Shown in pieces: positions 3,001 to 57,884 of a stretch of DNA of 64,000 nt. Each line of letters opens with the position of its first letter. The stretch's first letter is position 1. The position numbers and the translations under genes were made by a program. Under the pieces are notes generated by a model, which saw only the letters and a list, made by a program, of their open reading frames with translations, was not told the DNA's origin and did not search any database. Source of the DNA: Candidatus Saccharimonadota bacterium (GTDB taxonomy: Bacteria > Patescibacteriota > Saccharimonadia > Saccharimonadales > JAQGHD01); the NCBI GenBank assembly GCA_028288965.1, contig JAQGHD010000023.1, positions 7,249 to 71,248 on the forward strand, given 5' to 3'.

Positions 3001-3068
3001 GGGCTGGCAATAGCTAGACGCACAGCGTCAAAGTCGGCAATATCAGTTCCGTAAGCGTAGCGTCTCAT
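1..3068 (-). CDS. rpoC: DNA-directed RNA polymerase subunit beta-prime (partial; 3' end lies beyond window start)
   Basis: Missing from the ORF track because it runs off the window edge. My reverse-complement translation from ATG 3068-3066 reads MRRYAYGTDIADFDAVRLAIASPEDILDWSYGEVTKPETINYRT. The same frame encodes GKRVDYSGRSVIV, the catalytic NADFDGDQM (nt 1491-1517) and AAQSIGEPGTQLT. It is still open at nt 3 (..DHYVVQVTANDKEKVTL). The ATG overlaps the rpoB TAA by 1 nt (TAATG). Confidence 0.95.
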   Translation of the reverse strand, partial: MRRYAYGTDIADFDAVRLAIASPEDILDWSYGEVTKPETINYRTQKPERDGLFCERIFGPVKDINPHDAKYKGVRSREAAVDKNGEIVTRSIVRRERMAHINLAVPVAHIWFLRGTPSAIGLVLGMTVKNLERVAYFASYIIKSVDADKRDKMLADKEAEFNAGKEAIKLRYEKQAKDDEKADVRALAEQQTKELEELTRDYELLKNQLEGLEKLHLISESEYRSLPDDVSDLVTVGMGGAALKDMLDEIDLQKLIDTLTHEAEESKGQRKKKIMKRLRLLESMHRAEIKPSSMCVTVLPVIPPDLRPMVQLTGGRFATSDLNDLYRRVINRNNRLKKLMELNAPEVIRRNEQRMLQEAVDALIDNNNARSGRAVAATGQRRRLKSLSDMLKGKQGRFRQNLLGKRVDYSGRSVIVAGPELKIFQCGLPKMMALELFKPFVIGELIEREQAHNIRSATRMIEMSEIAVWDALDEVIKGKYVLLNRAPSLHRLSIQAFQPVLIEGKAIQLHPLVCKGFNADFDGDQMAVHLPLSDKAQDEARDIMASNKNLLKPADGSPILHIEQDIVLGSYYLTYERPGLTEKPTTNFTAISEALMAYENGVIDLQSRVRLPFRGQVRETTLGRVLFNEIFPEDFEFQNEAMTKKRLQQVMADVYQQYGQERTAEIADDLKDIGFEYATKSGLSMGMGDFSDVKGLDAIIEKGEKRATDISEQFDQGFITEEERYRLTVENWQQVDTTVQTTLAEQFEKEDSSMSIAVVSGARGNIGQVKTAVGMFGITTDATGRAIELPIRSNYKKGLNPLEYFTATRGARKGMIDTALKTADSGYLTRRLVDVSQDVFTIDEDMVDPGFSIYRRDSEEIGVNYASRLEGRFAAESIGTHVKKGHLITGEISKAIDADSQLDGVKIMSALSCTSTRGVGRKSYGIDPATGKLVAERYPVGVIAAQSIGEPGTQLTLKTFHSGGVAGEDITTGLPRVEELFEVRAPKGQAFLADITGTITAGEEGDHYVVQVTANDKEKVTL

Positions 3069-6000
3069 TATTTAGTCTCCTGTTCTACTTGTTTGGTCTC
3101 GTCATCATCTGAAGCAACTGGGGCTCCAGTTGGTAATTGATCGTCAATTTCCATAATCTTAAATTCATCAACGATAGCATCCTCGCTGACGTCTACATCA
3201 GATGCTTGCGGAGCTGGCACTTCAACTTCGGCCTGGTGACTGGCTTCGTCCTTAATGTTTTCGGCCAGTACGGCTTCGGCATCAACAGCTATATGTTCGG
3301 TAATCAAGTCAACCTTAAGACCCAAGCCTTGCAGCTCTTTAACAAGTACGTTAAAGCTTTCTGGTACTTTTGGCCCAACAATTTCAGTCTTCTTAATGAT
3401 TGACTCGTAGGCTTTTGAACGGCCGTAAACGTCATCGGACTTAATGGTCAGCATTTCTTGCAAAGTATGGGCGGCGCCGTAAGCTTCCAGAGCCCAGACT
3501 TCCATTTCGCCAAAGCGCTGGCCACCGTTTTGAGCTTTTCCACCCAACGGTTGCTGGGTGACCATGGTGTATGGCCCAGTAGAACGAGCGTGAATTTTGT
3601 CGGCAATCATGTGATTGAGCTTAATCATGTACATGGAGCCAACGGTGGTTCGCTCCTTAAAGGCTTCGCCTGTGCGGCCATCAAATAACTGCTGTTTGCC
3701 GTCTTCTGGCAGACCAGCCTCTTTGAGCAACTCGGAAATTTTATCAATGCTGACGCCATCAAATGATGGTGAAGCAACTTTAATACCAAGTGTTTTAGCG
3801 GCCATACCAAGGTGTGTTTCAAATAACTGTCCAACGTTCATACGGCTGGGTACTCCGAGCGGGTTGAGAATAATATCAACTGGCTCTCCATCCGTCATGA
3901 AGGGCATGTCCTCTACCGGCAAGATTCGGGCAATAACACCCTTGTTTCCGTGACGTCCACCAAGCTTGTCACCAACGGCGATTTTACGCATTTGAGCCAC
4001 AAAAACTTGGATTTGCATGAGTACTCCAGCTTTGAGCTCGTGGCCGTTGGCGCGAGAAAAGACCTTTACGCCCACAACCTTACCATGCTTACCGTTACTC
4101 ATGCGCTGAGAGGTATCGCGGACTTCCTTGGCCTTCTCACCAAAGATAGCCCGAAGCAAACGTTCTTCGCTGGATAGTTCTTGCTCACCCTTGGGCGTAA
4201 TTTTACCTACTAGAATGTCACCAGGGTGTACTTCGGCGCCGATACGGACAATACCGTCATCATCAAGGTGGCGCAAAGCTTCTTCGGAAACATTAGGGAT
4301 ATCACGGGTAACGATTTCTGGGCCAAGTTTGGTTTCACGAACCTCCGTCATGTAATCAACAATGTGAATAGACGTTAAAGTGTCATCCTCTACTAGTCGG
4401 CGCGAAATAATGATGGCATCCTCAAAGTTGTAACCAGACCATGGCATAAAGGCCACGACCAAGTCACGTCCCAGGGCCAACTCACCACCTTCTATAGACA
4501 TGCCTTCGATAAGCGCGTCACCAGCTTTAACTTTGTCGCCAGTACTGACCACAACCTTTTGGTTGATACAGGTACCTTCGTTGCTCCGCATGAAGTGCTG
4601 GGGGTGATAGGTCTTAGTGACGCCCTTGTACTTGACAACAACTTCGTCCGCGGTGGACTTAGTGATCTCGCCGGCGTCTTCGGCAACCACAATCTGACCA
4701 GTGTTAATGGCGGCCGAGGCTTCTAGTCCGGTGCCAACAAGTGGCGCAGCTGGGCGAATGAGCGGCACAGCTTGCCGCTGTTGGTTACTACCCATGAGGC
4801 TTCGGTACACGTAGTTTTTCTCAATAAATGGAATCAAGCCGGCACTACTACCAATAATTTGCTTTCGACTGGCATCCATATGGGTCACGTCATTGGCATC
4901 AACTTCACCTGATTTTAGGTGACTGCGAGCTGAAACACGCTCGCTTACAAAGAAACCACTAGCATCAACTGCTTCACCGGCACTGGCGATGACAGCTGAT
5001 TCTTCTTCAGCCGCATCCAGGTATTCAACTTGACGAGTCACCACAGCTTTAATCGGCCAGGTAACTTGATTTTTGACGGTAGCTAGTTTTTTAGCTTCGG
5101 CTTCTGAAATTTTCTTGCCGGCTTTGACGATGACTTTACCTTTTTCGTCTTCTAAGTCAACGGCGGCGATGTAGCCGGCTGCATCTTTGGCGGTAACGGC
5201 GTTTTTGATCTTTATATAAGGAGTCTCTATAAAACCGTACTCATTAATACGGGCAAAGTTGGCGAGGTTAAGCACTAAACCAATGTTGGCACCTTCTGGT
5301 GTCTCCACAGCACAGATACGGCCATAGTGGGTAGCGTGCGCGTCACGTACTTCAAAGCCGGCACGTTCACGGCTTAGGCCACCGGGACCCATAGAACTCA
5401 AACGTCGCTTGTGAGCCAGTTCGCTCAAAGGGTTAATTTGATCCATAAATTGGCTAAGCTGGCTGCTGGCAAAGAATTCACGGACGGCAGCGACGACTGG
5501 ACGGGCGTTAATGAGCTGTCCAGGGGTAACGGTCTCGATCTCGCACATGCTCATGCGGTCCTTGGTATTACGTTCCATACGCAGCAGACCAATCCGGAAC
5601 TGACGCTGGACCAGCTCGCCAACGAGTTTGACGCGTCGGTTGGCCAAACTGTCGATATCGTCAGCTGGCTCTTGGCTGTTATTCATACGAATAATCTCGG
5701 CAATGATAGCCGTCAGATCCTCAAGTCGCATAACACGATTCTCGGCCGTGTTTGGCACATCAAGGTTTAGGCGTTTGTTGATCTTGTAACGACCAACGCG
5801 GCTAAAATCAAAACGCTTGAAGTTATAAAACATGTTTTCTAGCAAACTACGGGCGTTGTCGACGGTAGCTAGGTCACCGGGACGTAGCCGCCGGTAGACT
5901 TCGATTAAGGCGTCGTTTGTTCCCTTGGTAGGGTCTTTTTCGAGTGTAGCTTTCACGTAGTTGATCTCACCTTGATCAACGTGCTTAAAGGTCTCGTTCA

Positions 6001-6610
6001 TACTGGCCTCATTCATGCCTAGGGCTTTAAGCAAGGTGGTGATAGCAATTTTTCGCTTGCGGTCGATCTTTACGTAGATGGCGCCGTTACTAGCTGTCTC
6101 GAACTCCAACCAAGCGCCACGGCCAGGAATGACCTTGGCACCGTACAAATTGCGTGTGCTATGGGTATCGGCAGTAAAGAATACACCGGCTGAACGAATC
6201 AGTTGCGAAACAACCACGCGCTCAGCGCCATTAATAACAAACGTACCACGAGTAGTCATCCAAGGATAATCACCCAGGTATATTTCTTGCTCTTTAACTT
6301 CGCCAGTGACCTTATTGGTCAGCTCCACCGTAGCTTTTAGTGGTGCTTCAAAGCTGACATTGTTTTCCCGAGCCTCGGCTTCAGGCATTTTTGGGGCGTC
6401 AAAATGATAATCCTTGAACCGCAAGGACAGTTTAGTGCCGGTATAATCGTCTATCGGACTTAATTCAGCCAATAATTCACCCAAACCTTCATTAACAAAC
6501 CATTGAAATGATTTGTTTTGGTGATCGACAAGGTTTGGAAGATCAACGATGTCGGTATTCTTAGTGAAAAAAATTCGTTCTTTGGCCTTAACAGTAGTGC
6601 TTTTTGCCAT
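3068..6610 (-). CDS. rpoB: DNA-directed RNA polymerase subunit beta
   Basis: The 1184-aa ORF carries beta-subunit hallmarks: GPGGLSRERAGFEVRDAHATHYGRICAVETPEGANIGL, GRHGNKGVIARILP and QRFGEMEVWALEAYGAA. I set the start at ATG 6610 (MAKSTTVKAK). The GGGAGG at 6623-6628 directly abuts the upstream ATG at 6622, so it can only serve the downstream ATG. The ORF-track start 6622 remains possible. Confidence 0.95.
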   Translation of the reverse strand: MAKSTTVKAKERIFFTKNTDIVDLPNLVDHQNKSFQWFVNEGLGELLAELSPIDDYTGTKLSLRFKDYHFDAPKMPEAEARENNVSFEAPLKATVELTNKVTGEVKEQEIYLGDYPWMTTRGTFVINGAERVVVSQLIRSAGVFFTADTHSTRNLYGAKVIPGRGAWLEFETASNGAIYVKIDRKRKIAITTLLKALGMNEASMNETFKHVDQGEINYVKATLEKDPTKGTNDALIEVYRRLRPGDLATVDNARSLLENMFYNFKRFDFSRVGRYKINKRLNLDVPNTAENRVMRLEDLTAIIAEIIRMNNSQEPADDIDSLANRRVKLVGELVQRQFRIGLLRMERNTKDRMSMCEIETVTPGQLINARPVVAAVREFFASSQLSQFMDQINPLSELAHKRRLSSMGPGGLSRERAGFEVRDAHATHYGRICAVETPEGANIGLVLNLANFARINEYGFIETPYIKIKNAVTAKDAAGYIAAVDLEDEKGKVIVKAGKKISEAEAKKLATVKNQVTWPIKAVVTRQVEYLDAAEEESAVIASAGEAVDASGFFVSERVSARSHLKSGEVDANDVTHMDASRKQIIGSSAGLIPFIEKNYVYRSLMGSNQQRQAVPLIRPAAPLVGTGLEASAAINTGQIVVAEDAGEITKSTADEVVVKYKGVTKTYHPQHFMRSNEGTCINQKVVVSTGDKVKAGDALIEGMSIEGGELALGRDLVVAFMPWSGYNFEDAIIISRRLVEDDTLTSIHIVDYMTEVRETKLGPEIVTRDIPNVSEEALRHLDDDGIVRIGAEVHPGDILVGKITPKGEQELSSEERLLRAIFGEKAKEVRDTSQRMSNGKHGKVVGVKVFSRANGHELKAGVLMQIQVFVAQMRKIAVGDKLGGRHGNKGVIARILPVEDMPFMTDGEPVDIILNPLGVPSRMNVGQLFETHLGMAAKTLGIKVASPSFDGVSIDKISELLKEAGLPEDGKQQLFDGRTGEAFKERTTVGSMYMIKLNHMIADKIHARSTGPYTMVTQQPLGGKAQNGGQRFGEMEVWALEAYGAAHTLQEMLTIKSDDVYGRSKAYESIIKKTEIVGPKVPESFNVLVKELQGLGLKVDLITEHIAVDAEAVLAENIKDEASHQAEVEVPAPQASDVDVSEDAIVDEFKIMEIDDQLPTGAPVASDDDETKQVEQETK

Positions 6611-6769
6611 ACGCGTGCGCATCCTCCCAAATTAAAAAATAGCTAGTAATACTTTTACTGGTTTTATGTTTGTTAGGGTGTTGCCGGCGAAGAAAACTAA
6701 GAGGGAGGTTTTTGCCTGCAGATGTTTTAAGCCACAGTAATACCCAACTTACACTACTTCTTACTTACT

Positions 6770-6864: not shown

Positions 6865-7497
6865 CTATTTGATTTTGGGTGGGGTGGTGATGATTTTGTC
6901 TACCAAGCCGTACTTTTTGGCTTCGTCGGCGGTCATCCAGAAGTCACGCTCCATGTCGGTGTGAATCTTGCCAGGCGTTTGACCAGTGTTATGAGTCATA
7001 ATCTCTTCCATGAGTCGCTTAATTCGAAGCGCTTCTTTGAGGTCAATTTCCTGATCAGTTACTTTACCGCGAGTACCGCTGGAGGGTTGGTGGATCATAA
7101 CCGTGGCGTGCGGCAGTATAAAGCGCTTGCCCTTGGTGCCACTGCTGAGCAAGAAAGCGGCGGCGCTGGCCTGCATACCAATGCCAACAGTCTGGACATC
7201 ACTTTTTACGAACTCCATGGTGTCGTAGATTGCTAGAGCGTCGTAGACGTTGCCGCCCGGACTATTGATATATAGGAATATGTCTTTGTTGGAGTTCTCA
7301 TTGTCTAGGAATAATAGCTGGGCCACAATTACGTTGGCACTATGCGGATTAATTTCATCACCGACAAAAATAATACGGTCCCGCAAAAGCCGTGAGTAAA
7401 TATCATAAGCGCGTTCCATCCGGCCTTCTTGTTCGATAACCGTTGGAATCAAAATTTGGCTTTTGGGTTTCTGATCATCATCTTGTGTAAACATCAT
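6865..7497 (-). CDS. clpP: ATP-dependent Clp protease proteolytic subunit
   Basis: The 210-aa ORF matches the ClpP family throughout: [42 protein letters not shown], the [11 protein letters not shown] serine region and IMIHQPS. An AAGAGGT Shine-Dalgarno sits 6 nt upstream of ATGATG. Confidence 0.93.
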
Positions 7498-7523: not shown

Positions 7524-7552
7524 ATGATATAAAATTAGCACTCAACAGTCAA
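7524..7552 (-). promoter_or_regulatory. Candidate clpP promoter (TTGACT-N17-TATCAT) overlapping CIRCE
   Basis: The minus strand reads TTGACT (7552-7547), a 17-nt spacer, then TATCAT (7529-7524). This lies 27 nt upstream of the clpP ATG. The -35 hexamer sits inside the CIRCE spacer. Confidence 0.55.
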
Positions 7553-7561
7553 GAGTGCTAA
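7535..7561 (-). promoter_or_regulatory. CIRCE element (HrcA operator-type inverted repeat) upstream of clpP
   Basis: The sequence TTAGCACTC-aacagtcaa-GAGTGCTAA is an exact match to the CIRCE consensus TTAGCACTC-N9-GAGTGCTAA. It lies 1 nt after the tig stop codon and 38 nt before the clpP ATG. Confidence 0.85.
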
Positions 7562-7562
7562 T

Positions 7563-8843
7563 TTACTTGGTGCTGAGCTCTGTCAGCCGGGCTAAAGTTT
7601 TTTGAGTAAGAATTCTGGAAGCAATGTCGCGGCCAGCTTCTGGCTTACTCAGCTCAGCTTGCATGCCCGGGTCTTGATACTGACCTTTGAGTAGTTGGAG
7701 TTGGATTTCCAGCTCCTCGGGGGTAACGACTAGTCCTTCTTTTTCGGCAACTTCAGATAGAAGTATGCCGGCTTTGACACGTTCCTCAGCTTGAGGTCGC
7801 AAACTTGCTCGAAATTCATCTTCGGTTTTGCCTTCTTGGGCTAAAAATTCAGGAAACGTCTGCCCGCGGTAAACGAGATTTTGTTGCTGATCGCGAATAA
7901 TAAGTTCGATTTGCTCATCGACTAGCAGCTTCGGGACGCTGGCTTTGCTTTTAGCCACCAGTTCGCTGACAATCTCGTTTTCCAGCAGGCGCGTGGCCTC
8001 CTGCTCATGGTCGGCGGTTATTTGCTTTTTAATATCTATCTTTAATTCTTCTATGGTCTTGAAGGGTCCGACGGTGGCCGCAAAAGCATCGTCAAGTTTG
8101 GCTTCGGATAGTTCTTGCACGGTTTTAACGGTGACAGTGAAAGTTACTTTCTTGTTACGCATGGCGGAGGCGCCGTAGTCTTTTGGAAAAGTGAGCGTGA
8201 AGCTTTTTTTTTGTCCGGGCTTGGTGCCGATAAGATTTACTTCAAATCCAGGTATGAAACTATCGCTGCCCAGCAGCAGCGGATAATCCTGGCCATCGGT
8301 GCCTGGTATGGCCTGGCCTTTTTGGTCTTGTCCTGAAAAATCGATAATTATTTCATCACCCTTTTTGGCAGCTCGCTCGACGGCTTTTCGAGTCGCGGCA
8401 CGTTGCTGCAAACGCTCTAAAACTTCGTTAACGTTTTTGGCAGTGACGCTGACCTTGGTTTTGGTCTTTTTGATCTTTTTGTAATCGCCTAGGACAACAT
8501 CACCGATAATAGACACGGTGGCGGTGAACTCAAGTTCACTAAATGGCACAAACTTGGTTATTTGAACTTCGGGGCGGTCTACAGCCCGTATGTTTTGTTT
8601 TTGCAAAACATTGGCGTACAGATGATTGACGGCCTCTTCTAAAAACTCGGTTTGTAAAACGCTGGGGTCGGTGTTTTTCTCTACGAGTGGCAGCGGCGCT
8701 TTGCCCTCGCGAAAGCCAGCAACTTTTACTTTAGCTTGGAGGTGGCGCAGAACATGCTCTTTGAGCGGGGTTAAGTCAGTGGTGTCGGCCGAGACGGTTA
8801 AGATGAGCTCGGTATCGCTGGGTAACTCACGTTTTACTTGCAT
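7563..8843 (-). CDS. tig: Trigger factor
   Basis: The 426-aa ORF has the N-terminal ribosome-binding signature AGFREGKAPLPLV (GFRxGxxP), a central FKBP-like segment (GSDSFIPGFEVNLIG) and the classic tig-clpP gene order. Confidence 0.9.
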   Translation of the reverse strand: MQVKRELPSDTELILTVSADTTDLTPLKEHVLRHLQAKVKVAGFREGKAPLPLVEKNTDPSVLQTEFLEEAVNHLYANVLQKQNIRAVDRPEVQITKFVPFSELEFTATVSIIGDVVLGDYKKIKKTKTKVSVTAKNVNEVLERLQQRAATRKAVERAAKKGDEIIIDFSGQDQKGQAIPGTDGQDYPLLLGSDSFIPGFEVNLIGTKPGQKKSFTLTFPKDYGASAMRNKKVTFTVTVKTVQELSEAKLDDAFAATVGPFKTIEELKIDIKKQITADHEQEATRLLENEIVSELVAKSKASVPKLLVDEQIELIIRDQQQNLVYRGQTFPEFLAQEGKTEDEFRASLRPQAEERVKAGILLSEVAEKEGLVVTPEELEIQLQLLKGQYQDPGMQAELSKPEAGRDIASRILTQKTLARLTELSTK

Positions 8844-11576: not shown

Positions 11577-11661
11577 TGGTGGGGATGAAAGGACTTGAAC
11601 CTTCACGCCTTGCGGCACTAGCTCCTAAGGCTAGCGTGTCTACCAATTCCACCACATCCCC
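11577..11661 (-). tRNA. tRNA-Leu (anticodon UAG), genomically encoded CCA
   Basis: The reverse complement is GGGGATGTGGTGGAATTGGTAGACACGCTAGCCTTAGGAGCTAGTGCCGCAAGGCGTGAAGGTTCAAGTCCTTTCATCCCCACCA. It has a 7-bp acceptor stem and a 5-bp anticodon stem CTAGC/GCTAG with loop CTTAGGA (anticodon at 11625-11627). It also has a long variable arm (GCC-GCAA-GGC), a GGTTCAAGTCC T-arm, discriminator A and CCA. Confidence 0.92.
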
Positions 11662-20399: not shown

Positions 20400-21374
20400 T
20401 TAACGGGTAGTTTGGGAGCTCACGTGACTGTCAATGGCCTTCACAAGTTCTTGCTCTTCTAATGCGATAGCGTTGCGGGCCGAAACTACTGAATTATATT
20501 GGGCGACCAATTGTTTATCTCGGGCAACACCTGAATTATATTGTTTAACCTTGTCATTAAAGCTGGCTACGCCGGAGTTATAACTATCGTACTGTCCAGA
20601 AGCCAACAAGCTATCAAGTCGCTTTCGGTCAGCGCTCAAAGATTGTTCAGTACTGGTGAGTTGGCTTTCTAGGCCGTCGATTTGATTTTTTAAGGCAGTG
20701 AGTTGCTGGTCGTACTTTAAGATTTGGTTTTTACGTTCGGTAAAGACTGCCTGGTACTGCTCAGCATAGCCCACGATTTTGGCGCGGTCGGAAAAGAATT
20801 GCTTATAGTGCGTCTCAAGCTCAGGCGTGAGCGTTCGTACCTCAGTGCCTAAAATAGAATGAAGCTCATTGGGTACAACTGATGAATCCCGTTTGCGGTA
20901 CTGTTCAATAACTGACTTTAATCGTTCGTCGGTTGAGCTATTATAAACGGCTAGGAGCTCGGCATTGAGCTTGTCTTTATCGGAACGGCTAAAACGATCA
21001 TAGGCAGCGTGGAGCATCTCGTGAGCCGCGGTGACCTGTTCCACGCCACTCAGCCGGCTATCGGTCACGTCATACAAGTAAATGCCCTGGCCGCTGACAA
21101 AACAGCCCAGTACGATGGTTTGCTCGCTGACCGAACAATGTTGATTGAAGATGGTTTTATTAGACTCTATATCCGGATGGTTTACGTAAAATAGCTTCTG
21201 GCCATAGCCACTCATGGTGGTGTCGGCAGCCAAGCTGGCTACTCTGGCCGGCGCCTGGTAGTTGCGCAGTCGCCACCAGTCAAAGATGTTTTGACGCTGC
21301 CATAAAAAACCTGCCAACACCGCCAAAAATAGCATAGTCGAAGTGAGGGATCCGGTTCTTTTTGGTTGAGCCAT
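20400..21374 (-). CDS. Membrane-anchored HExxH protein with C-terminal coiled coil (function unknown)
   Basis: The 324-aa ORF has an N-terminal TM (MLFLAVLAGFLW) and an HEMLH motif (AAHEMLHAAYD). Its C-terminal third has heptad-like sequence and three copies of a QYNSGVA-like repeat. Confidence 0.6.
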   Translation of the reverse strand: MAQPKRTGSLTSTMLFLAVLAGFLWQRQNIFDWWRLRNYQAPARVASLAADTTMSGYGQKLFYVNHPDIESNKTIFNQHCSVSEQTIVLGCFVSGQGIYLYDVTDSRLSGVEQVTAAHEMLHAAYDRFSRSDKDKLNAELLAVYNSSTDERLKSVIEQYRKRDSSVVPNELHSILGTEVRTLTPELETHYKQFFSDRAKIVGYAEQYQAVFTERKNQILKYDQQLTALKNQIDGLESQLTSTEQSLSADRKRLDSLLASGQYDSYNSGVASFNDKVKQYNSGVARDKQLVAQYNSVVSARNAIALEEQELVKAIDSHVSSQTTR

Positions 21375-21403: not shown

Positions 21404-23893
21404 TTAGCTGACAGGTGTCTCTTCTTGAACATTCTGGTAGATTAGTTCATCTTCCCTGGCACTTACTTTCACCACATCACCCCGCTCGTAACCGTTTTCC
21501 AGTAGACCCAAGGCAATATGATCCTCTAGTGTGTCTTGAATCAGGCGACGCATGGGCCGTACCCCGTTATGTGAGTCATAGCCCTTGTCTAGTAAGTAAT
21601 GCTTAGCAGCTGGCGTGGCTTGCAAGCCCAAGCCCTTTTTTAGAAGTCGCTGACGCAGTTCATCCAGTTGCAGGTCCAAGATCCTTAGCACATCTTTTTG
21701 CGTCAAGGCACGGAAGACCACTACCTTATCTATACGGTTCAGCAGCTCCGGGCGCATCATTTTCTTAAGTTCATCCTGGACTTTGTCTCGGTTAATAGCG
21801 TGTAAGCTGTCCAGGTCTTTCAAATCCTTGGCGTCGGTGGCATGGAAGCCTAAGGACGCTTCTTTTTGGAGCTTTTCTGCTCCAATGTTGCTAGTCATGA
21901 TCACAATAGTGTTAGTGAAATCGATCTTACGGCCCTTAGCGTCGGTGAGCACGCCGTCTTCTAGGATCTGCAGGAGCATGTTAAAGACTTCTGGGTGTGC
22001 TTTCTCGATCTCATCAAATAGCACCAGGCTGTAGGGTTGCCGGCGGATTTTATCGGTCAGCTGCCCGCCGTCATCGTAACCGACATAGCCGGCTGGCGCA
22101 CCAACCAAGCGGGCCACAGTGTGACGCTCAGACAATTCACTCATATCAATCTTGACCAGTGCTTCATCGGAGCCAAAGAATTCACGGGCTAGAACCCGGG
22201 CCAGTTCAGTCTTGCCGACACCGGTCGGGCCAAGGAATATTAACGAACCGATTGGTCGTTTTTCACTACCAATTCCGGAGCGGTTACGGCGGATGGCCTT
22301 AGATACGGCACTGACTGCCTCGCTTTGGCCAATAACGTAACGGCCGAGGTTCTTTTCTAAGTTTACTAAGTACTTAGCCTCAGAACGGATAACTTTAGTG
22401 ACCGGCACACCGGTCATACGGGCCACAACTTCGGCAACGTGTTCGCTGGTTAGCACCAGACGCTTAGCACCCTTGCCGGCAGCCTGAAGGTCCTTGAGCT
22501 TGTCACTAATTTGACTAGCCCGAGTTTTGTAATGGGCGGCCCGCTCGTAATCCTCAGCCTCCGCAGCCTCTTCGCGGCGGGTATTAGCCAAGGCCAGTTC
22601 CTTCTGCAACTTACGCACGTCTGGCGAAGTTTTGCCTTTATCAACACGCAAGTAAGCAGCAGTTTCATCGAGTAAATCGATGGCTTTATCAGGCATGAAT
22701 CGGTCGTTGACGTAGCGCTTGGCTAGATCAACCGTGTCTTTTAGGACTTCGTCATTGACGCTGACGTTATGAAAATCTTCGTAGTGCTTACGTAAGCCTT
22801 TTAGAATGGCAAGGGTCTCTGGCACAGTAGTTTCGGGGACTTGAATAGGCTGGAAACGACGTTCTAGAGCAGCATCTTTCTCTATATGTTTAGTGTACTC
22901 AGCCGTTGTAGTGGCGCCAATGACTTGGATTTTGCCGCGTGCTAAAGCAGGCTTAAGAATATTACCAGCATCCATAGCACCTTCGGCAGCCCCGGCACCA
23001 ACAATCAGATGGAGCTCATCTATAAAGATAATAGTTTTATCATCATCTTCTAGCTCGGCCATGACTTTTTTAAGGCGCTCTTCGAACTCGCCTCGGTATT
23101 TTGTGCCAGCGATCATGCCAGCCAGGTCAAGCATGACAATACGCTTGTCTAATAAGCTATCAGGCACGTCTTCTGTGATGATGCGTTGAGCCAGTCCCTC
23201 TACGATGGCAGTCTTACCGACGCCCGGCTCACCAATAAGGACCGGATTGTTTTTGGTACGGCGGTTTAGGATGGTGATGACTCGCTTGATTTGCGCTTCT
23301 CGCCCCACCACTGGGTCTAGTTTATTCTCGCGAGCTTGGGCGGTTAGATCGGTACCAAAGAAATCAAGCGCTGTTTTGCGCTTCTTTTTGCTAGCACTAC
23401 GCTTAGTGGCGGTGTCGTTGTCGTCGTATTGTTGACGATTCAGGAACTGCTCCAGCTCAGTAGTCAGGTGATCGACGTCGACATTCATGTCACGCAGTAG
23501 CGTGGTGGCTCGGGCATTCTTCTGGTTCAAAATGCTATATAAGATGTGCTCGGTGCCACAGTAATCGTGACCAAAGTCTTGGGCAGTCTCATAGGCCATT
23601 CTAAGCGTTAGTTTGGCGGTTTCACTGAGGCCCTTAGCCCCTAGGTTTATGACCAACGTTTTAGGCGTTAGATTAAGCGCTAAACGCGCCCGATCAAGGG
23701 TCACCCCAATGCCTTCGAGCATTTTAGCGCCAATGCTACTGTCTTGAGCTAGCACCCCAAGCAGTAAATGTTCGGTGCCGACGTACGCACTGCCAAAGCT
23801 ACGAGCAATGGCATCAGCATGCTTCAGGCTTTGCAGAGCATTATCTGTTAAATGATTCAAAAATTCTTGGAATTCTGCTGAGTTAGGCATCAT
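21404..23893 (-). CDS. clpC: ATP-dependent Clp protease ATP-binding subunit ClpC-type (class I AAA+)
   Basis: The ORF has two Clp_N repeats ([10 protein letters not shown] and [10 protein letters not shown]) and two Walker A sites (GEPGVGKT and GPTGVGKT). Its short middle domain has a UVR-like segment ([18 protein letters not shown]), which marks it as ClpC-like rather than ClpB-like. The ORF track starts at TTG 23932. I prefer ATG 23893 or 23890 ([11 protein letters not shown]) on the basis of N-domain length and an upstream AAGGAAGGTGG. Confidence 0.9.
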
Positions 23894-23997
23894 AATTTTC
23901 TTATACCCACCTTCCTTAGGGAAGACAGACAAACGTTATGTTTTCTGTACCCTTATTAAGTATAGCAAGCGCTCAAATGAAATATCTTGCTCTCTCC

Positions 23998-24026
23998 ATA
24001 ATAAAAAATTAGCACTCACTAGTCAA
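23998..24026 (-). promoter_or_regulatory. Candidate clpC promoter (TTGACT-N17-TATTAT) overlapping CIRCE
   Basis: The minus strand reads TTGACT (24026-24021), a 17-nt spacer, then TATTAT (24003-23998). The architecture is the same as at clpP. Confidence 0.55.
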
Positions 24027-24035
24027 GAGTGCTAA
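24009..24035 (-). promoter_or_regulatory. CIRCE element (HrcA operator-type inverted repeat) upstream of clpC
   Basis: The sequence TTAGCACTC-actagtcaa-GAGTGCTAA is an exact CIRCE consensus. It lies in the 136-nt nusA-clpC gap. Confidence 0.85.
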
Positions 24036-24068
24036 TTTAATGTCTGTCACGAACCCTTTAACGGCCCG

Positions 24069-25265
24069 TTACTCTGCAGGTTTGTCGTCGGTACCGTGCT
24101 CTTCAATGGCCTCAAGCAGGCTGTTTTCTAGTTCAGTCTTTTTCTTGAGCTTTTGGACCACTGGTTTGGCTTCGGCCTCAGGTTGTGACTGTTCTGGTTC
24201 AACGGCAGCTGGCACGGGAGCCTTTTCTGTCTCTGGCTTAATGTCAATGTCATAGCCTGTTAGCTTGCTAGCCAGACGGACATTCTGGCCGCTTTTGCCA
24301 ATAGCAATACTTAACTGATCTTCAGGCACAGTAACAATCGCCTTTTTGTTGGCTTGGTCTAAGGTTACCTGGCTGACTTTTGTGGGGCTTAAAGCATTAG
24401 TAATGAAGGGCTCTGAATTTTCGTCCCACACAATAATGTCAATTTTTTCTTGCTCGCCAATCTCGCTCATGACGGCGTTTACACGAGTTCCGTGACCACC
24501 AACAAAGGTACCAACCGGGTCAACACCCTGTACGGTACTGCTAACGGCAATTTTACTGCGTACGCCAGCTTCTCGGGCAATTTCTTTAATCTCCACAGCG
24601 CCGTTTTCCATTTCTGGCACCTCGGCCCTAAACAGCCACTCAATAAATTCAGTATTTCCGCGCGATACCACTAATTGTGGTCCACGAAAACCACGCTCTA
24701 CGTCCTTGAGAAAGACCTTGAGCCGTTGGCCTGGGTAGTAGCGCTCACCCTGAATTTGCTCGCTGGCTGGCATAATGCCCTGGGCTTTGCCAAGGTCAAT
24801 GCGCACAATCCGGCCCTCTACGCGAGCCACAATACCGTTAATGACAGTACCGATTTTATCCTCGTACTCCGCCATAACAATTTCTCGTTCGGCTTCGCGC
24901 AGCCGCTGCAAGATCACTTGTTTAGCGGTTTGTGCGGCTACTCGTCCAAATTTTTCTACTTTTTGCTCGATCTCCACCATGTCACCAACTTTGGCGTCGC
25001 TTTTGATCTTTTTAGCATCAGCCACGTTAATTTCAAAGTTTTCATCGCCAACTTCTTCTACCACTTCTTTTTCAATAAAGGCCGTAATGTCGCCAGTGTT
25101 GATATTCATAGTAATGCGTACTTCTTGCTCTCGATCGCCGTAATCACGGCGGTAGGCGGCCGCTAAGGCCTGTTCTACCACTTCTTGCACGGTATCTTCT
25201 GGGAGATTCTTTTCCTCGGCAATGGCTTTAAGCGCCAAGGCCAACTGTTTTACATCTAAGTCCAT
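24069..25265 (-). CDS. nusA: Transcription termination/antitermination factor NusA
   Basis: The 398-aa ORF has the NusA N-terminal domain, an S1 domain (GIVARVEGRIVRIDLGKAQGIMP) and two KH domains (IGKSGQNVRLASKLTG). The C-terminal tail is acidic and Pro-rich. Confidence 0.92.
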   Translation of the reverse strand: MDLDVKQLALALKAIAEEKNLPEDTVQEVVEQALAAAYRRDYGDREQEVRITMNINTGDITAFIEKEVVEEVGDENFEINVADAKKIKSDAKVGDMVEIEQKVEKFGRVAAQTAKQVILQRLREAEREIVMAEYEDKIGTVINGIVARVEGRIVRIDLGKAQGIMPASEQIQGERYYPGQRLKVFLKDVERGFRGPQLVVSRGNTEFIEWLFRAEVPEMENGAVEIKEIAREAGVRSKIAVSSTVQGVDPVGTFVGGHGTRVNAVMSEIGEQEKIDIIVWDENSEPFITNALSPTKVSQVTLDQANKKAIVTVPEDQLSIAIGKSGQNVRLASKLTGYDIDIKPETEKAPVPAAVEPEQSQPEAEAKPVVQKLKKKTELENSLLEAIEEHGTDDKPAE

Positions 25266-50521: not shown

Positions 50522-51791
50522 AAGCTTCCACCATTAGTTGTTCGGTCTCGGTCATATGATTGTCAAGCTGCTCCAACACCTGTTCTTTTAGTGGCGGCTC
50601 GTCCATGTAGCGCATGAATAGCTCATCCCACAATGCTGAGCTTAAATGATAGGTGGCTTGCTTGCCGTAGGGCAAATTATTGCAGTAGCTTATGGCCAGA
50701 TCGAGTAAGTTTAGCGACAATACTTTTTTGCCGTCCATCACCCCAACGTAATCCAGCCCTTGCCAAAACTTTATGGCCGGCACTACCTTGGTCATGATTT
50801 CTTCGGCATGACGCCAGTGAAGATCTTCTGGCTGGACGTGCGGTTCAAACAACTCCGGATGCTGCTTAGGGCTCGTTTTGCCGAAGTAATGATGCACAAC
50901 GCGCCAGTGGACTTGCTGATCAGCCATGGTAATCGAGGCCGTGTGCTCGTCGGCCAATGCCCGGGCCACAATTTCTCCAAAGTTTGGCGTTACGTGCTGA
51001 AGTTTAGTAAAGGTACTATAGGTCCGAATTTCGCTGACATAGTGCAGTATTAAGGGAAAAGCAACCAGGGCCAGGCCCGGCAAATTTTTAACAGGCAGGG
51101 GCAAGATTGCCACCAGTCCGGCCTCTCGAACCAGCACCACATTATGATGTTGGCGTAGCAAATAATTTTGGGCGGCCTTGCCCCAACGCTTGGTATCCAG
51201 CACAGCAACGTGTACATCTCGTGTTTCAAAATCACTAGCCGTCAGCGACTTATAGCTAGAGGTAAAACTAGCCTGCCAACGCTTGCTTTCTAATATTTGC
51301 GCCGCTGCGCAAAGCTCGTCTATACGTTCACGCTTTAATAAAGAATCGATTGATTTGTAGCCCAGATATTTCATGACCGCTTTGGGCGGCTTGGATTTGA
51401 GCAGCTTCTTAAGTGTGCTGTGTTTGATTGCCCAGCAATTTCTCGCTAGTTTTAAACTATCTATTTCGTTCTTGATCTTTGCCAGAATCTCATCGGTGCT
51501 GGAGTTGCGCGTGCATTCTAAAGCACCAAGCAGTAGCTCGTCGTGCTGCTTAATCGTGTCTAGCAATGCGGCGTATAACTCCGGGGGCGTTGTATCGTTT
51601 GGATCAAGTCCTAAAGACGTGGTAACAGCACGCATTTTACTAATGATTTCAGCCACCAACCGCACATCGATATCGGGGTGTCCACTGGCAGTTTCAAGAT
51701 TACGCAATGAGGTCGTAAACAAAGGTTCTTTAGCACCCAACAACTGAGAGAGCATTCTCGCCATAATTAAGCTTAAGCGTAGCATAAACAA
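50508..51791 (-). CDS. Hypothetical protein (427 aa), no recognisable domain
   Basis: This long clean ORF overlaps the downstream LOG-like gene by 14 nt. The start is uncertain (TTG 51791, ATG 51785 or ATG 51764), and none has a clear Shine-Dalgarno. It has no TM segment and no motif I can name. Confidence 0.6.
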   Translation of the reverse strand: MFMLRLSLIMARMLSQLLGAKEPLFTTSLRNLETASGHPDIDVRLVAEIISKMRAVTTSLGLDPNDTTPPELYAALLDTIKQHDELLLGALECTRNSSTDEILAKIKNEIDSLKLARNCWAIKHSTLKKLLKSKPPKAVMKYLGYKSIDSLLKRERIDELCAAAQILESKRWQASFTSSYKSLTASDFETRDVHVAVLDTKRWGKAAQNYLLRQHHNVVLVREAGLVAILPLPVKNLPGLALVAFPLILHYVSEIRTYSTFTKLQHVTPNFGEIVARALADEHTASITMADQQVHWRVVHHYFGKTSPKQHPELFEPHVQPEDLHWRHAEEIMTKVVPAIKFWQGLDYVGVMDGKKVLSLNLLDLAISYCNNLPYGKQATYHLSSALWDELFMRYMDEPPLKEQVLEQLDNHMTETEQLMVEAYEFS

Positions 51792-57666: not shown

Positions 57667-57884
57667 TTCATAAGGAAGTACAGGGCAACAGCCAGAATAA
57701 CGACAACCACTACCACGCCGACAATTAAGCCTGTCTTTGAACTTTTTGGACTGACTGTTGGTTGGGCTGAAGGCGTAACTGGTGGTGTATCATCTGGAGC
57801 GATATCCGGTGATGGGGTTGGTGAGGCCGGTGGAGCAGCTGGCTGATCCCCGGTTGGTGGCACTGGTGTTTGATTTGGATCCAT
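57663..57884 (-). CDS. Small Pro-rich tail-anchored membrane protein
   Basis: The 73-aa ORF has a Pro/Thr/Ala-rich N-terminal 50 aa followed by a single TM (GLIVGVVVVVVILAVALYFL). It overlaps the Rpe-like gene's start by 4 nt. This is the only ORF covering the interval. Confidence 0.5.
   Translation of the reverse strand: MDPNQTPVPPTGDQPAAPPASPTPSPDIAPDDTPPVTPSAQPTVSPKSSKTGLIVGVVVVVVILAVALYFLMK

What the first reader, a model, noticed from the sequence alone, without database searches (positions are those of the whole stretch)
23995..24040. Second CIRCE with the same promoter architecture in front of clpC; 34-nt block nearly identical to the clpP copy
Positions 24009-24035 are again an exact CIRCE consensus, with TTGACT inside the spacer and TATTAT 17 nt downstream. 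Read on the minus strand, the clpP site is AAATTAGCACTCTTGACTgtTGAGTGCTAATTTT and the clpC site is AAATTAGCACTCTTGACTagTGAGTGCTAATTTT. They are identical at 32 of 34 positions, including flanks and spacer that the consensus does not constrain. Two copies 16 kb apart, in front of both halves of a ClpCP machine, suggest a dedicated HrcA-type regulon for the protease. No clpX follows clpP here. The copies are unlikely to be chance palindromes. A run of six T follows this copy, so it may also terminate nusA transcription.
Basis: partly seen in the sequence, partly recalled or inferred. Interest (0 to 1): 0.62.

Follow-up and report, generated by a model that had tools for sequence, protein, structure and literature searches.

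The report
HrcA heat-shock operator on clpC promoter
A textbook heat-shock repressor binding site (CIRCE) sits on top of the promoter of the protease-unfolding gene clpC, as it does at clpP, and this wiring is shared by essentially all sampled relatives in the little-studied Saccharibacteria, so it is real and conserved but an extension of a well-known system.

Summary
Window 24009-24035 is a perfect CIRCE (TTAGCACTC-N9-GAGTGCTAA). On the minus strand a -35 hexamer (TTGACT) lies in its 9-nt spacer and TATTAT follows 17 nt downstream. It sits 115 nt upstream of a ClpC-type AAA+ ATPase and 33 nt after nusA. The clpP copy (7535-7561) matches it at 32/34 positions.

It is neither chance (0.01 expected) nor a dispersed repeat. 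The window comes from a Saccharibacteria (Patescibacteria) genome. In 80 metagenomic clpC orthologue loci chosen by protein only, all 75 with enough upstream DNA carry a CIRCE (3 mismatches or fewer) with TTGAC/TTGCA in the spacer in 60 of the 63 unique sites tabulated. In those 623 kb, CIRCE occurs only upstream of clpC (72) and hrcA (4).

In relatives the same module precedes hrcA, dnaK, dnaJ, groES, sHSP and htpG. The Clp genes therefore belong to the general HrcA regulon, not a protease-dedicated one. No CtsR boxes were found.

hrcA is not in this window, so its presence in this genome is untested. The terminator idea is not supported by conservation.

Verdict: an HrcA operator occluding the clpC promoter; a new member of a known kind.

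The parts
24009..24035 (-). CIRCE operator (TTAGCACTC-N9-GAGTGCTAA), perfect match, upstream of clpC
   Evidence: 0 mismatches; 0.01 expected by chance; sequence read
24005..24038 (-). 34-nt extended block AAA-CIRCE-TTTT (12-bp extended palindrome plus one T), 32/34 identical to the clpP copy
   Evidence: The identical 34-mer occurs at clpP and dnaK of another Saccharimonadales MAG (L010, L104).
24021..24026 (-). -35 hexamer TTGACT, inside the 9-nt CIRCE spacer
   Evidence: TTG at these spacer positions in 60 of 63 unique orthologous sites.
23998..24003 (-). -10 hexamer TATTAT, 17 nt after the -35 and 5 nt after the CIRCE right arm
   Evidence: A TAnnnT hexamer 4-7 nt after CIRCE in 61 of 63 orthologous sites.
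21404..23893 (-). clpC-type AAA+ unfoldase gene (829 aa; N-domain, two AAA+ modules, shortened middle domain, LGF ClpP-docking loop), the gene controlled by the module
   Evidence: ClpB/ClpA/ClpC-family HMMs; ClpB profile positions 411-478 not matched; …[10 protein letters not shown]…
20400..21374 (-). 324-aa ORF starting 29 nt after clpC (N-terminal hydrophobic helix, HEMLH motif, coiled-coil tail). Probably co-transcribed with clpC; function unknown.
   Evidence: homologue found in 44 of the 80 relative loci, its position relative to clpC there not checked
24069..25265 (-). nusA, ending 33 nt upstream of the CIRCE
   Evidence: TIGR01953, 382.8 bits, above cutoff; nusA found in 61 of 80 relative loci
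7535..7561 (-). Sister CIRCE operator upstream of clpP, with -35 TTGACT at 7547-7552 and -10 TATCAT at 7524-7529. Its left flank abuts the tig stop codon (7563-7565).
6865..7497 (-). clpP, the proteolytic partner, controlled by the sister module
   Evidence: NF001368, 287.5 bits, above cutoff

Best explanation
The element is the operator of the heat-shock repressor HrcA (CIRCE), built into the sigma-70-type promoter of clpC. The left arm lies just upstream of the -35 hexamer, the -35 itself is the first six bases of the 9-nt spacer, and the right arm fills most of the -35/-10 spacer. An HrcA dimer bound to the two arms would cover the -35 and spacer and keep RNA polymerase off. When HrcA is inactivated by heat or unfolded-protein stress, the near-consensus promoter fires and clpC is transcribed, probably together with the downstream 324-aa ORF. 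By analogy with Bacillus, that inactivation would happen when chaperonin is titrated away. clpP, 16 kb away, carries the same module, so both halves of the ClpCP protease respond together. They are members of the general HrcA stress regulon of Saccharibacteria, which in relatives also includes hrcA-grpE, dnaK, dnaJ, groES, a small HSP and htpG. HrcA thereby takes the role that CtsR plays at clp genes in Firmicutes.

What is shown: the sequence, the promoter geometry, conservation at orthologous sites, restriction to proteostasis genes, and the presence of HrcA in relatives. What is inferred: HrcA binding, repression by occlusion, the stress signal, and the presence of hrcA in this genome.
For: - Perfect consensus; only two copies in 64 kb, 0.01 expected.
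- Promoter hexamers and 17-nt spacing at both copies.
- Unbiased test: 80 metagenomic loci were chosen only by similarity to the ClpC N-domain (75-84% identity). Of these, 75 have a CIRCE with 3 mismatches or fewer within 300 nt upstream. The other 5 have only 113-257 nt of upstream sequence.
- In 63 unique sites GCACTC/GAGTGC is invariant, TTG of the -35 is present in 60, and a -10 lies 4-7 nt after CIRCE in 61, with an extended TGn in 43.
- In 622,801 nt of those loci, CIRCE (2 mismatches or fewer) occurs 76 times: 72 upstream of clpC and 4 upstream of hrcA.
- A scan of species-representative genomes with CIRCE+TTGACT gave 118 sites, mostly Saccharibacteria. Downstream genes were Clp ATPase 34, DnaK 24, ClpP 15, HrcA 14, and GroES, sHSP, DnaJ and HtpG.
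- All 26 hrcA genes in those loci have a CIRCE with 2 mismatches or fewer.
- The same MAG carries CIRCE-clpC and CIRCE-clpP (L035/L110). Another carries CIRCE-clpP plus CIRCE-dnaK and CIRCE-hrcA (L010/L104).
- Four relatives have nusA-CIRCE-hrcA-grpE-CIRCE-clpC. That HrcA passes the Pfam cutoffs for PF03444 and PF01628 and matches PDB 1STZ at E = 7e-18.
- There is no CtsR box near clpC or clpP in the window, nor in 1.495 Mb of related loci.
- ClpC carries the LGF ClpP-docking loop.
Against: - No hrcA, grpE, dnaK, groES or dnaJ is present in the 64-kb window, so the cognate repressor is unverified for this genome.
- There is no binding or expression data for any Saccharibacteria HrcA.
- Patescibacterial HrcA is about 100 aa shorter than characterised HrcA. 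Its DNA-binding and chaperonin dependence may therefore differ.
- One TM7x transcriptome paper reports 'clpB' and clpP rising together, while most other stress genes moved the other way. That is only weakly informative.
Confidence: 0.85

Rival explanations
1. Dual use: besides (or instead of) being an operator, the CIRCE palindrome plus the following T6 run acts as the intrinsic terminator of nusA transcription.
For: As RNA the block folds into a 12-bp stem with a 9-nt loop, and the 83-nt region scores z = -3.9 against shuffles. For the clpP copy, which has the same arms and differs by two loop bases, that hairpin alone accounts for the whole predicted -15.1 kcal/mol. The stem is followed by UUUAUUAU. 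The element lies 33 nt after the nusA stop codon.
Against: - The terminator scan does not call it, because the loop exceeds 8 nt and the stem base is A-U rich.
- Only 1 of 63 unique orthologous sites has a run of 5 or more T after CIRCE, and only 5 of 63 have 6 or more T in the next 8 nt. The U-tract is therefore not a conserved feature, even in loci where nusA directly precedes clpC.
- In 11 of 63 sites an A-C mismatch breaks pair 3/25 of the hairpin.
- The T run is also simply the A/T-rich stretch between CIRCE and the -10.
Confidence: 0.15
2. The two copies are members of a dispersed repeat family (REP- or MITE-like), or are chance palindromes, with no regulatory meaning.
For: Two near-identical 34-45-nt palindromic blocks lie in intergenic DNA.
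Against: - 0.01 copies are expected by chance.
- There are no further copies in the window, even with 3 mismatches.
- In 623 kb of relatives every copy lies upstream of clpC or hrcA.
- In the genome scan, about 98 of the 118 sites precede chaperone or protease genes under the first-ORF rule.
- The position relative to the -35 and -10 is fixed.
Confidence: 0.01
3. The operator is read by a regulator other than HrcA, or is a relic because hrcA was lost in this genome. In some relatives hrcA-grpE lies between nusA and clpC, but here it does not.
For: hrcA is absent from the window. The nusA-clpC gap is only 175 nt, whereas four relatives hold hrcA-grpE there.
Against: - Both CIRCE copies are perfect 18/18 matches, which is unlikely for a decaying relic.
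- Most relatives (57 of 61 with nusA) also lack hrcA between nusA and clpC yet keep CIRCE.
- hrcA occurs elsewhere in Saccharibacteria genomes, always with its own CIRCE.
Confidence: 0.04
4. The 32/34 (45 nt at 89%) identity of the two modules reflects recent duplication or gene conversion of a promoter cassette, rather than independent selection on each site.
For: Among cross-genome pairs of sites that share the 25-nt core, only 0.4% share all 7 flank bases and only 2.6% reach 32/34 or better. One other MAG has 34/34 identity between its clpP and dnaK sites.
Against: - The flanks match the lineage consensus: (T/A)AA on the left and TTT on the right, which extends the palindrome.
- The window's clpC 34-mer is identical to sites in a different genome (L010, L104). 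The block is therefore close to a shared optimum rather than a private duplicate.
- A second same-genome pair reaches only 31/34 (L035/L110).
Confidence: 0.15

Closest known systems
Class I heat-shock control in Bacillus subtilis and other bacteria: HrcA repressor with CIRCE at the dnaK and groESL operons
   Same: The 9-N9-9 consensus TTAGCACTC-N9-GAGTGCTAA is identical (PMC3842655). hrcA is autoregulated and linked to grpE and dnaK in relatives.
   Different: - The target genes here are clpC and clpP, which are class III (CtsR) genes in Bacillus (PMC3472708 abstract).
- The -35 hexamer is embedded in the operator spacer. In B. subtilis, from my own knowledge, CIRCE lies downstream of the promoter near the transcription start.
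- HrcA of this lineage is only about 235-250 aa.
HrcA regulon of Mollicutes (dnaK, clpB, lon under CIRCE)
   Same: In a reduced-genome lineage, HrcA is the only stress regulator and its regulon extends to AAA+ chaperone and protease genes (PMC5138195).
   Different: The Mollicutes targets are clpB and lon. Here they are a ClpP-coupled ClpC (LGF loop) and clpP itself. The lineage is also different (Patescibacteria).
clpP of Streptococcus salivarius, dually regulated by CtsR and HrcA (Chastanet & Msadek 2003, J Bacteriol 185:683; cited in PMC3842655; paper not held)
   Same: It is a precedent for a CIRCE at clpP.
   Different: In that case a CtsR box is also present. Here no CtsR box was found in the window or in 1.5 Mb of relatives.
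CtsR regulon (ctsR-mcsA-mcsB-clpC, clpP, clpE) of Firmicutes
   Same: The physiological logic is the same: clpC and clpP are co-repressed and released under proteotoxic stress.
   Different: The operator is different (a heptad direct repeat versus the CIRCE palindrome) and so is the repressor. clpC here follows nusA, not ctsR.

Membership tests
HrcA-CIRCE operator | Sequence matches TTAGCACTC-N9-GAGTGCTAA | tested here: met
   0 mismatches at 24009-24035 and at 7535-7561
HrcA-CIRCE operator | Located in or overlapping the promoter of a stress or proteostasis gene, in the correct orientation | tested here: met
   It overlaps a 10/12 sigma-70-type promoter 115 nt upstream of clpC. The clpP site has the same layout.
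HrcA-CIRCE operator | Conserved at the orthologous position in related genomes | tested here: met
   All 75 assessable clpC loci of the 80 sampled have it, with the core hexamers invariant
HrcA-CIRCE operator | The same element is found at the classical regulon members (hrcA, dnaK, groES) | tested here: met
   Tested in relatives only: hrcA 26/26, dnaK 31/45 directly (the rest probably lie inside operons), groES 9/9. The same MAG carries it at clpP, dnaK and hrcA (L010/L104).
HrcA-CIRCE operator | A cognate hrcA gene in the same genome | not testable with these tools
   hrcA is not in the window and the rest of the genome was not retrievable. It is present in relatives.
HrcA-CIRCE operator | HrcA binds the site, and the gene is derepressed by heat shock or hrcA loss | not testable with these tools
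   This needs experiments. No paper in the library links HrcA or CIRCE to Saccharibacteria or Patescibacteria.
CtsR (class III) operator | Tandem heptad RGTCAAA-NAN-RGTCAAA upstream of clpC or clpP | tested here: not met
   The only hit in the window is a 2-mismatch match at 57736, which is unrelated. There are no hits with 1 mismatch or fewer in 1.495 Mb of related loci.
CtsR (class III) operator | ctsR-mcsA-mcsB genes preceding clpC | tested here: not met
   nusA precedes clpC in the window, and nusA was found in 61 of the 80 relative loci
Rho-independent terminator | Stable G+C-rich hairpin immediately followed by a U-tract, conserved at the gene's 3' end | tested here: inconclusive
   The hairpin (about -15 kcal/mol by analogy with the clpP copy) and T6 are present here. 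It was not called by the scan, and the U-tract is absent in 62 of 63 orthologous sites.
Dispersed intergenic repeat (REP/MITE-like) | Many copies at unrelated or intragenic positions | tested here: not met
   There are 2 copies in 64 kb. All 76 copies in 623 kb of relatives lie upstream of clpC or hrcA.
ClpC-type (ClpP-coupled) class I AAA+ unfoldase | N-domain, two AAA+ modules, a half-length middle domain, and a ClpP-docking [ILV]GF loop | tested here: met
   The HMM matches skip ClpB profile positions 411-478. An LGF motif sits at the expected place in AAA-2. ClpP interaction itself was not tested.

The most novel reading that the evidence does not exclude
Across Saccharibacteria, and perhaps wider Patescibacteria, a minimal HrcA of about 240 aa is the single master regulator of the whole proteostasis network: ClpC, ClpP, DnaK/DnaJ/GrpE, GroES, sHSP and HtpG. 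This HrcA lacks roughly 100 residues found between the DNA-binding domain and the C-terminal half of characterised HrcA. It acts through a stereotyped cassette in which the -35 lies inside the operator, and it replaces CtsR and alternative sigma factors. The ancestral locus may have been nusA-hrcA-grpE-clpC.
Probability: 0.45. Interest if true: 0.5.

Novelty: new member of a known kind. Interest (0 to 1): 0.35.

Why it matters
Almost nothing is known about gene regulation in Saccharibacteria and other Patescibacteria, which are ultrasmall episymbionts with very few transcription factors. This result gives a concrete and testable regulon. It consists of one canonical operator with a fixed geometry relative to the promoter. 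That operator is conserved upstream of clpC in every assessable relative, and it ties the ClpCP protease to the chaperone genes. The module could serve as a stress-inducible promoter cassette for the genetic systems now emerging for Saccharibacteria. It also provides a second reduced-genome lineage, after Mollicutes, in which HrcA has absorbed AAA+ protease genes that CtsR controls in Firmicutes. It is not a new mechanism.

Tried and rejected
- An exact-protein look-up of the window's NusA found nothing on record, so the source genome could not be identified. hrcA and a genome-wide position weight matrix search in this same genome were therefore out of reach.
The best nucleotide match was 73% identity over clpP.
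- tblastn of relatives' HrcA, GrpE, DnaK, DnaJ, GroES, sHSP and HtpG against the window found nothing.
- Pfam and NCBIfam scans of about 28 window ORFs found no HrcA, CtsR or ClpX.
- Rfam found only a tRNA and no known RNA motif at the site.
- A relaxed core search (GCACTC-N9-GAGTGC, 2 mismatches) gave one extra hit at 51733. That is at chance level and was rejected.
- I looked for compensatory changes between the arms. Pair 1/27 co-varies (Fisher p = 0.0009, not corrected for phylogeny), but pair 3/25 does not, and it is often A-C. This does not discriminate protein-dimer symmetry from hairpin selection, and it argues mildly against RNA-structure selection.
- Chastanet & Msadek 2003 could not be read.

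Full report
**1. What is in the sequence**

Window 24009-24035 reads TTAGCACTCACTAGTCAAGAGTGCTAA on the plus strand. This is a perfect match to the CIRCE consensus TTAGCACTC-N9-GAGTGCTAA. A second perfect match lies at 7535-7561. With up to three mismatches allowed these remain the only two matches in 64 kb, and dinucleotide shuffles give 0.01.

On the minus strand the two 34-nt blocks are:
- clpC copy: AAATTAGCACTCTTGACTAGTGAGTGCTAATTTT (24038->24005)
- clpP copy: AAATTAGCACTCTTGACTGTTGAGTGCTAATTTT (7564->7531)

They are identical at 32/34 positions and differ only at spacer positions 7-8. The repeat finder extends the similarity to 45 nt at 89%, through the -10 region. It is the longest two-copy direct repeat in the window.

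The promoter scan reports TTGACT-17 nt-TATTAT (24026->23998) and TTGACT-17 nt-TATCAT (7552->7524), each with 10/12 matches.

**2. The genes**

All of these are on the minus strand:
- NusA, 24069-25265 (TIGR01953, above cutoff).
- A 829-aa double-AAA+ Clp ATPase, 21404-23893.
- Trigger factor, 7563-8843.
- ClpP, 6865-7497.
- rpoB, 3068-6622.

The ATPase matches the ClpB and ClpA models over both ATPase modules but skips ClpB profile positions 411-478, so it has a half-length middle domain. It carries an LGF tripeptide (…[10 protein letters not shown]…) where ClpC, ClpA and ClpX have their ClpP-docking loop. It is a ClpC-type, ClpP-coupled unfoldase.

CIRCE begins 33 nt after the nusA stop codon and ends 115 nt before the clpC ATG. 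A 324-aa ORF (20400-21374) starts 29 nt after clpC. It has an N-terminal hydrophobic helix, an HEMLH motif and a coiled-coil tail, and it is probably co-transcribed with clpC.

**3. Where the window comes from**

I scanned one genome per species (GTDB) for CIRCE with TTGACT in the spacer. The window's proteins are 70-84% identical to those of such genomes. The window is therefore a Saccharibacteria (Patescibacteria/CPR) genome. Its own genome was not among the hits.

**4. Operator or repeat family?**

I classified the first ORF downstream of each of the 118 sites:

| Downstream gene | Sites |
|---|---|
| Clp ATPase | 34 |
| DnaK | 24 |
| ClpP | 15 |
| HrcA | 14 |
| GroES | 2 |
| small HSP | 2 |
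| DnaJ | 2 |
| HtpG | 1 |
| No confident assignment | about 24 |

The unassigned sites are mostly from non-Saccharibacteria or from truncated loci.

That sample is biased, because it was selected by the motif. I therefore drew a second sample by protein only. It comprises 80 metagenomic loci encoding a relative of the ClpC N-domain (75-84% identity).
- 75 of them have a CIRCE with three mismatches or fewer within 300 nt upstream: 40 perfect, 21 with one mismatch, 11 with two and 3 with three.
- The five without one have only 113-257 nt of upstream sequence on their contigs.
- In the 622,801 nt of these loci, CIRCE (2 mismatches or fewer) occurs 76 times: 72 upstream of clpC and 4 upstream of hrcA. 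It occurs nowhere else.

The block is not a dispersed repeat.

**5. The promoter-in-operator design is conserved**

In 63 unique orthologous clpC sites the consensus is AA-TTAGCACTC-TTGACntGa-GAGTGCTAA-tTGcTATaAT.
- The inner hexamers GCACTC/GAGTGC are invariant.
- TTG of the -35 occupies spacer positions 1-3 in 60 of 63 sites.
- A TAnnnT hexamer lies 4-7 nt after the right arm in 61 of 63 sites.
- An extended -10 TGn is present in 43 of 63 sites.

The window's version has a 17-nt spacing and no TG. It is a normal member of this set.

**6. HrcA**

The window contains no hrcA, grpE, dnaK, dnaJ, groES, sHSP or htpG (tblastn with relatives' proteins; HMM scans of candidate ORFs).

In relatives HrcA is clearly present.
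- The ORFs downstream of 14 motif sites are HrcA-like.
- All 26 hrcA genes found in the fetched genome loci have their own CIRCE with 2 mismatches or fewer.
- Four of the clpC loci (L154, L160, L171, L182) have hrcA with its own CIRCE between nusA and clpC. In L154, whose ORFs were read in full, the order is nusA-CIRCE-hrcA-grpE-CIRCE-clpC.
- The L154 and L182 proteins pass the Pfam cutoffs for the HrcA DNA-binding domain (PF03444) and the HrcA C-terminal domain (PF01628). GrpE was also confirmed in L154.
- The L154 protein matches Thermotoga maritima HrcA (PDB 1STZ) at E = 7e-18.
- One MAG (DATIJG01) carries the module at clpP (L010), and at dnaK and hrcA (L104). Another (CAZBQZ01) carries it at clpC (L035) and clpP (L110), exactly the pair seen in the window.

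**7. Not a protease-dedicated regulon**

The same element precedes hrcA, dnaK, dnaJ, groES, sHSP and htpG in relatives. clpC and clpP are therefore part of the general HrcA stress regulon.

In a host-associated Saccharibacteria clade the link is even tighter. A single CIRCE precedes clpC, and clpP follows on the same strand, either directly or after one gene.

**8. No CtsR**

The CtsR heptad repeat is absent from the clpC and clpP upstream regions. The only 2-mismatch hit in the window is at 57736, which is at chance level. It is also absent, at 1 mismatch or fewer, from 1.495 Mb of related loci holding more than 100 clpC genes and 27 clpP genes. clpC follows nusA, not ctsR-mcsA-mcsB.

**9. 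Mechanism**

This part is inferred. HrcA is a dimeric repressor that binds the two CIRCE arms under non-stress conditions and is released when chaperonin is titrated by unfolded protein. This is established for Bacillus and is summarised in PMC3842655.

Here the arms bracket the -35 hexamer, and the right arm fills 9 of the 17 spacer bases. Bound HrcA should therefore exclude RNA polymerase, which is repression by occlusion.

Transcription from this promoter would start around 23990. CIRCE would then not be part of the clpC mRNA, so the mRNA-level roles proposed for transcribed CIRCE elements do not apply, except to nusA read-through transcripts.

**10. The terminator suggestion**

As RNA the block forms a 12-bp stem with a 9-nt loop, followed by UUUAUUAU. 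For the clpP copy, which has the same arms and differs by two loop bases, this hairpin alone accounts for the whole predicted -15.1 kcal/mol. A terminator role is thus physically plausible in this genome.

The evidence against it is as follows.
- The scan does not call it a terminator.
- Only 1 of 63 unique orthologous sites has a run of 5 or more T after CIRCE.
- 11 of 63 sites carry an A-C mismatch at pair 3/25.

Termination is therefore not what is being conserved. I rate it a minor possibility (0.15).

**11. How remarkable is 32/34?**

Among cross-genome pairs of sites that already share the 25-base core, 2.6% reach 32/34 or better and 0.4% share all seven flank bases. The flanks correspond to the lineage consensus, (T/A)AA on the left and TTT on the right, which extends the palindrome to 12 bp. 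The window's clpC 34-mer is identical to the clpP and dnaK sites of a different MAG.

The similarity is thus best explained by both sites sitting near a shared operator-plus-promoter optimum. Within-genome homogenisation cannot be excluded.

**12. Comparison with what is known**

The element is a canonical CIRCE. What differs from the textbook is its targets. Precedents exist:
- In Mollicutes, HrcA controls clpB and lon as well as dnaK (PMC5138195).
- Streptococcus salivarius clpP is dually controlled by CtsR and HrcA (Chastanet & Msadek 2003, cited in PMC3842655; the paper itself is not held).

Full-text searches found no paper linking HrcA or CIRCE with Saccharibacteria, Patescibacteria, CPR or TM7. 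A TM7x transcriptome preprint notes that 'clpB' and clpP rise together, which is compatible but weak.

I classify the finding as a new member of a known kind. It is a solid, conserved and apparently undescribed extension of the HrcA regulon in an understudied phylum, not a new mechanism.

**13. Limits**

- HrcA binding, the transcription start and stress induction are all inferred.
- hrcA in this genome is unverified.
- The clpP evidence comes from a motif-selected sample.
- E-values and Fisher tests on related sequences are not corrected for phylogeny.

Noticed in passing
L154:4653-5372, L182:4529-5260; also L003, L005, L014, L036, L039, L046, L052, L055, L065, L096, L101, L106, L107, L115: HrcA of Saccharibacteria and other Patescibacteria (Minisyncoccia, Azambacteria, Moraniibacteriota) is only 234-252 aa, against 338 aa for T. 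maritima HrcA (PDB 1STZ). The winged-helix domain aligns to 1STZ residues 16-91, and only the second half of the Pfam HrcA C-terminal model is matched. About 80-100 residues corresponding to 1STZ ~92-233 are therefore missing. From memory this is roughly the inserted dimerising domain.
   Followed up: partly
L154:3380-8484 (also L160, L171, L182): Four relatives have hrcA with its own CIRCE between nusA and clpC; in L154, read in full, the order is nusA-CIRCE-hrcA-grpE-CIRCE-clpC. In the window and most relatives nusA and clpC are adjacent or separated by other DNA, with gaps of 49-3209 nt. This suggests that hrcA-grpE has moved in or out of this position.
   Followed up: partly
L087, L093, L099, L031 (clpC-clpP about 60 nt apart); L049, L109, L017, L068, L038, L044, L053, L095 (one gene between): In a second, mostly animal-associated Saccharibacteria clade, the ClpC-type gene (N-terminus MDSEFSEMMN…) is followed on the same strand by clpP. 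A single CIRCE promoter could therefore drive both. L095 has an extra CIRCE directly before clpP.
   Followed up: partly
window 20400-21374 (-): A 324-aa ORF lies 29 nt downstream of clpC. It has an N-terminal hydrophobic helix, an HEMLH (HExxH-like) motif and a long coiled-coil tail. It has no significant Pfam or NCBIfam family, and a homologue was found in 44 of the 80 relative loci. It is probably co-transcribed with clpC and so belongs to the CIRCE-controlled unit.
   Followed up: partly
L054, L105, L063, L078, L086, L058, L059 (about 15-45 nt downstream of the seed CIRCE): At several of these Saccharibacteria promoters, most of them dnaK promoters (L078's downstream gene is unassigned), a second, degenerate CIRCE-like palindrome follows the -10 (for example ttagcacagtcgtaactggactgctaa, ttagcactcagtgcgagtatctgctaa). 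This gives tandem operators, as reported for some Mollicutes and Lactobacillus promoters (compare).
   Followed up: no
window 7562-7565: The extended left flank (AAA) of the clpP CIRCE block overlaps the TAA stop codon of tig. The operator starts one base after the trigger-factor coding sequence, leaving no separate terminator between tig and the clpP promoter.
   Followed up: no
window 11580-11661 (-): This is the only Rfam hit in the window, a tRNA (60.8 bits). The stretch is 89% identical to a region of the Saccharimonadales MAG contig L010.
   Followed up: no
L012, L029, L040 (cyanobacteria); L034, L074 (Dehalococcoidia-like); L041 (Lactiplantibacillus); several Clostridia loci: The arrangement with TTGACT inside the CIRCE spacer is not confined to Patescibacteria. 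It also appears at groES, sHSP and other promoters in Firmicutes, cyanobacteria and Chloroflexota, sometimes in the opposite orientation relative to the gene.
   Followed up: no
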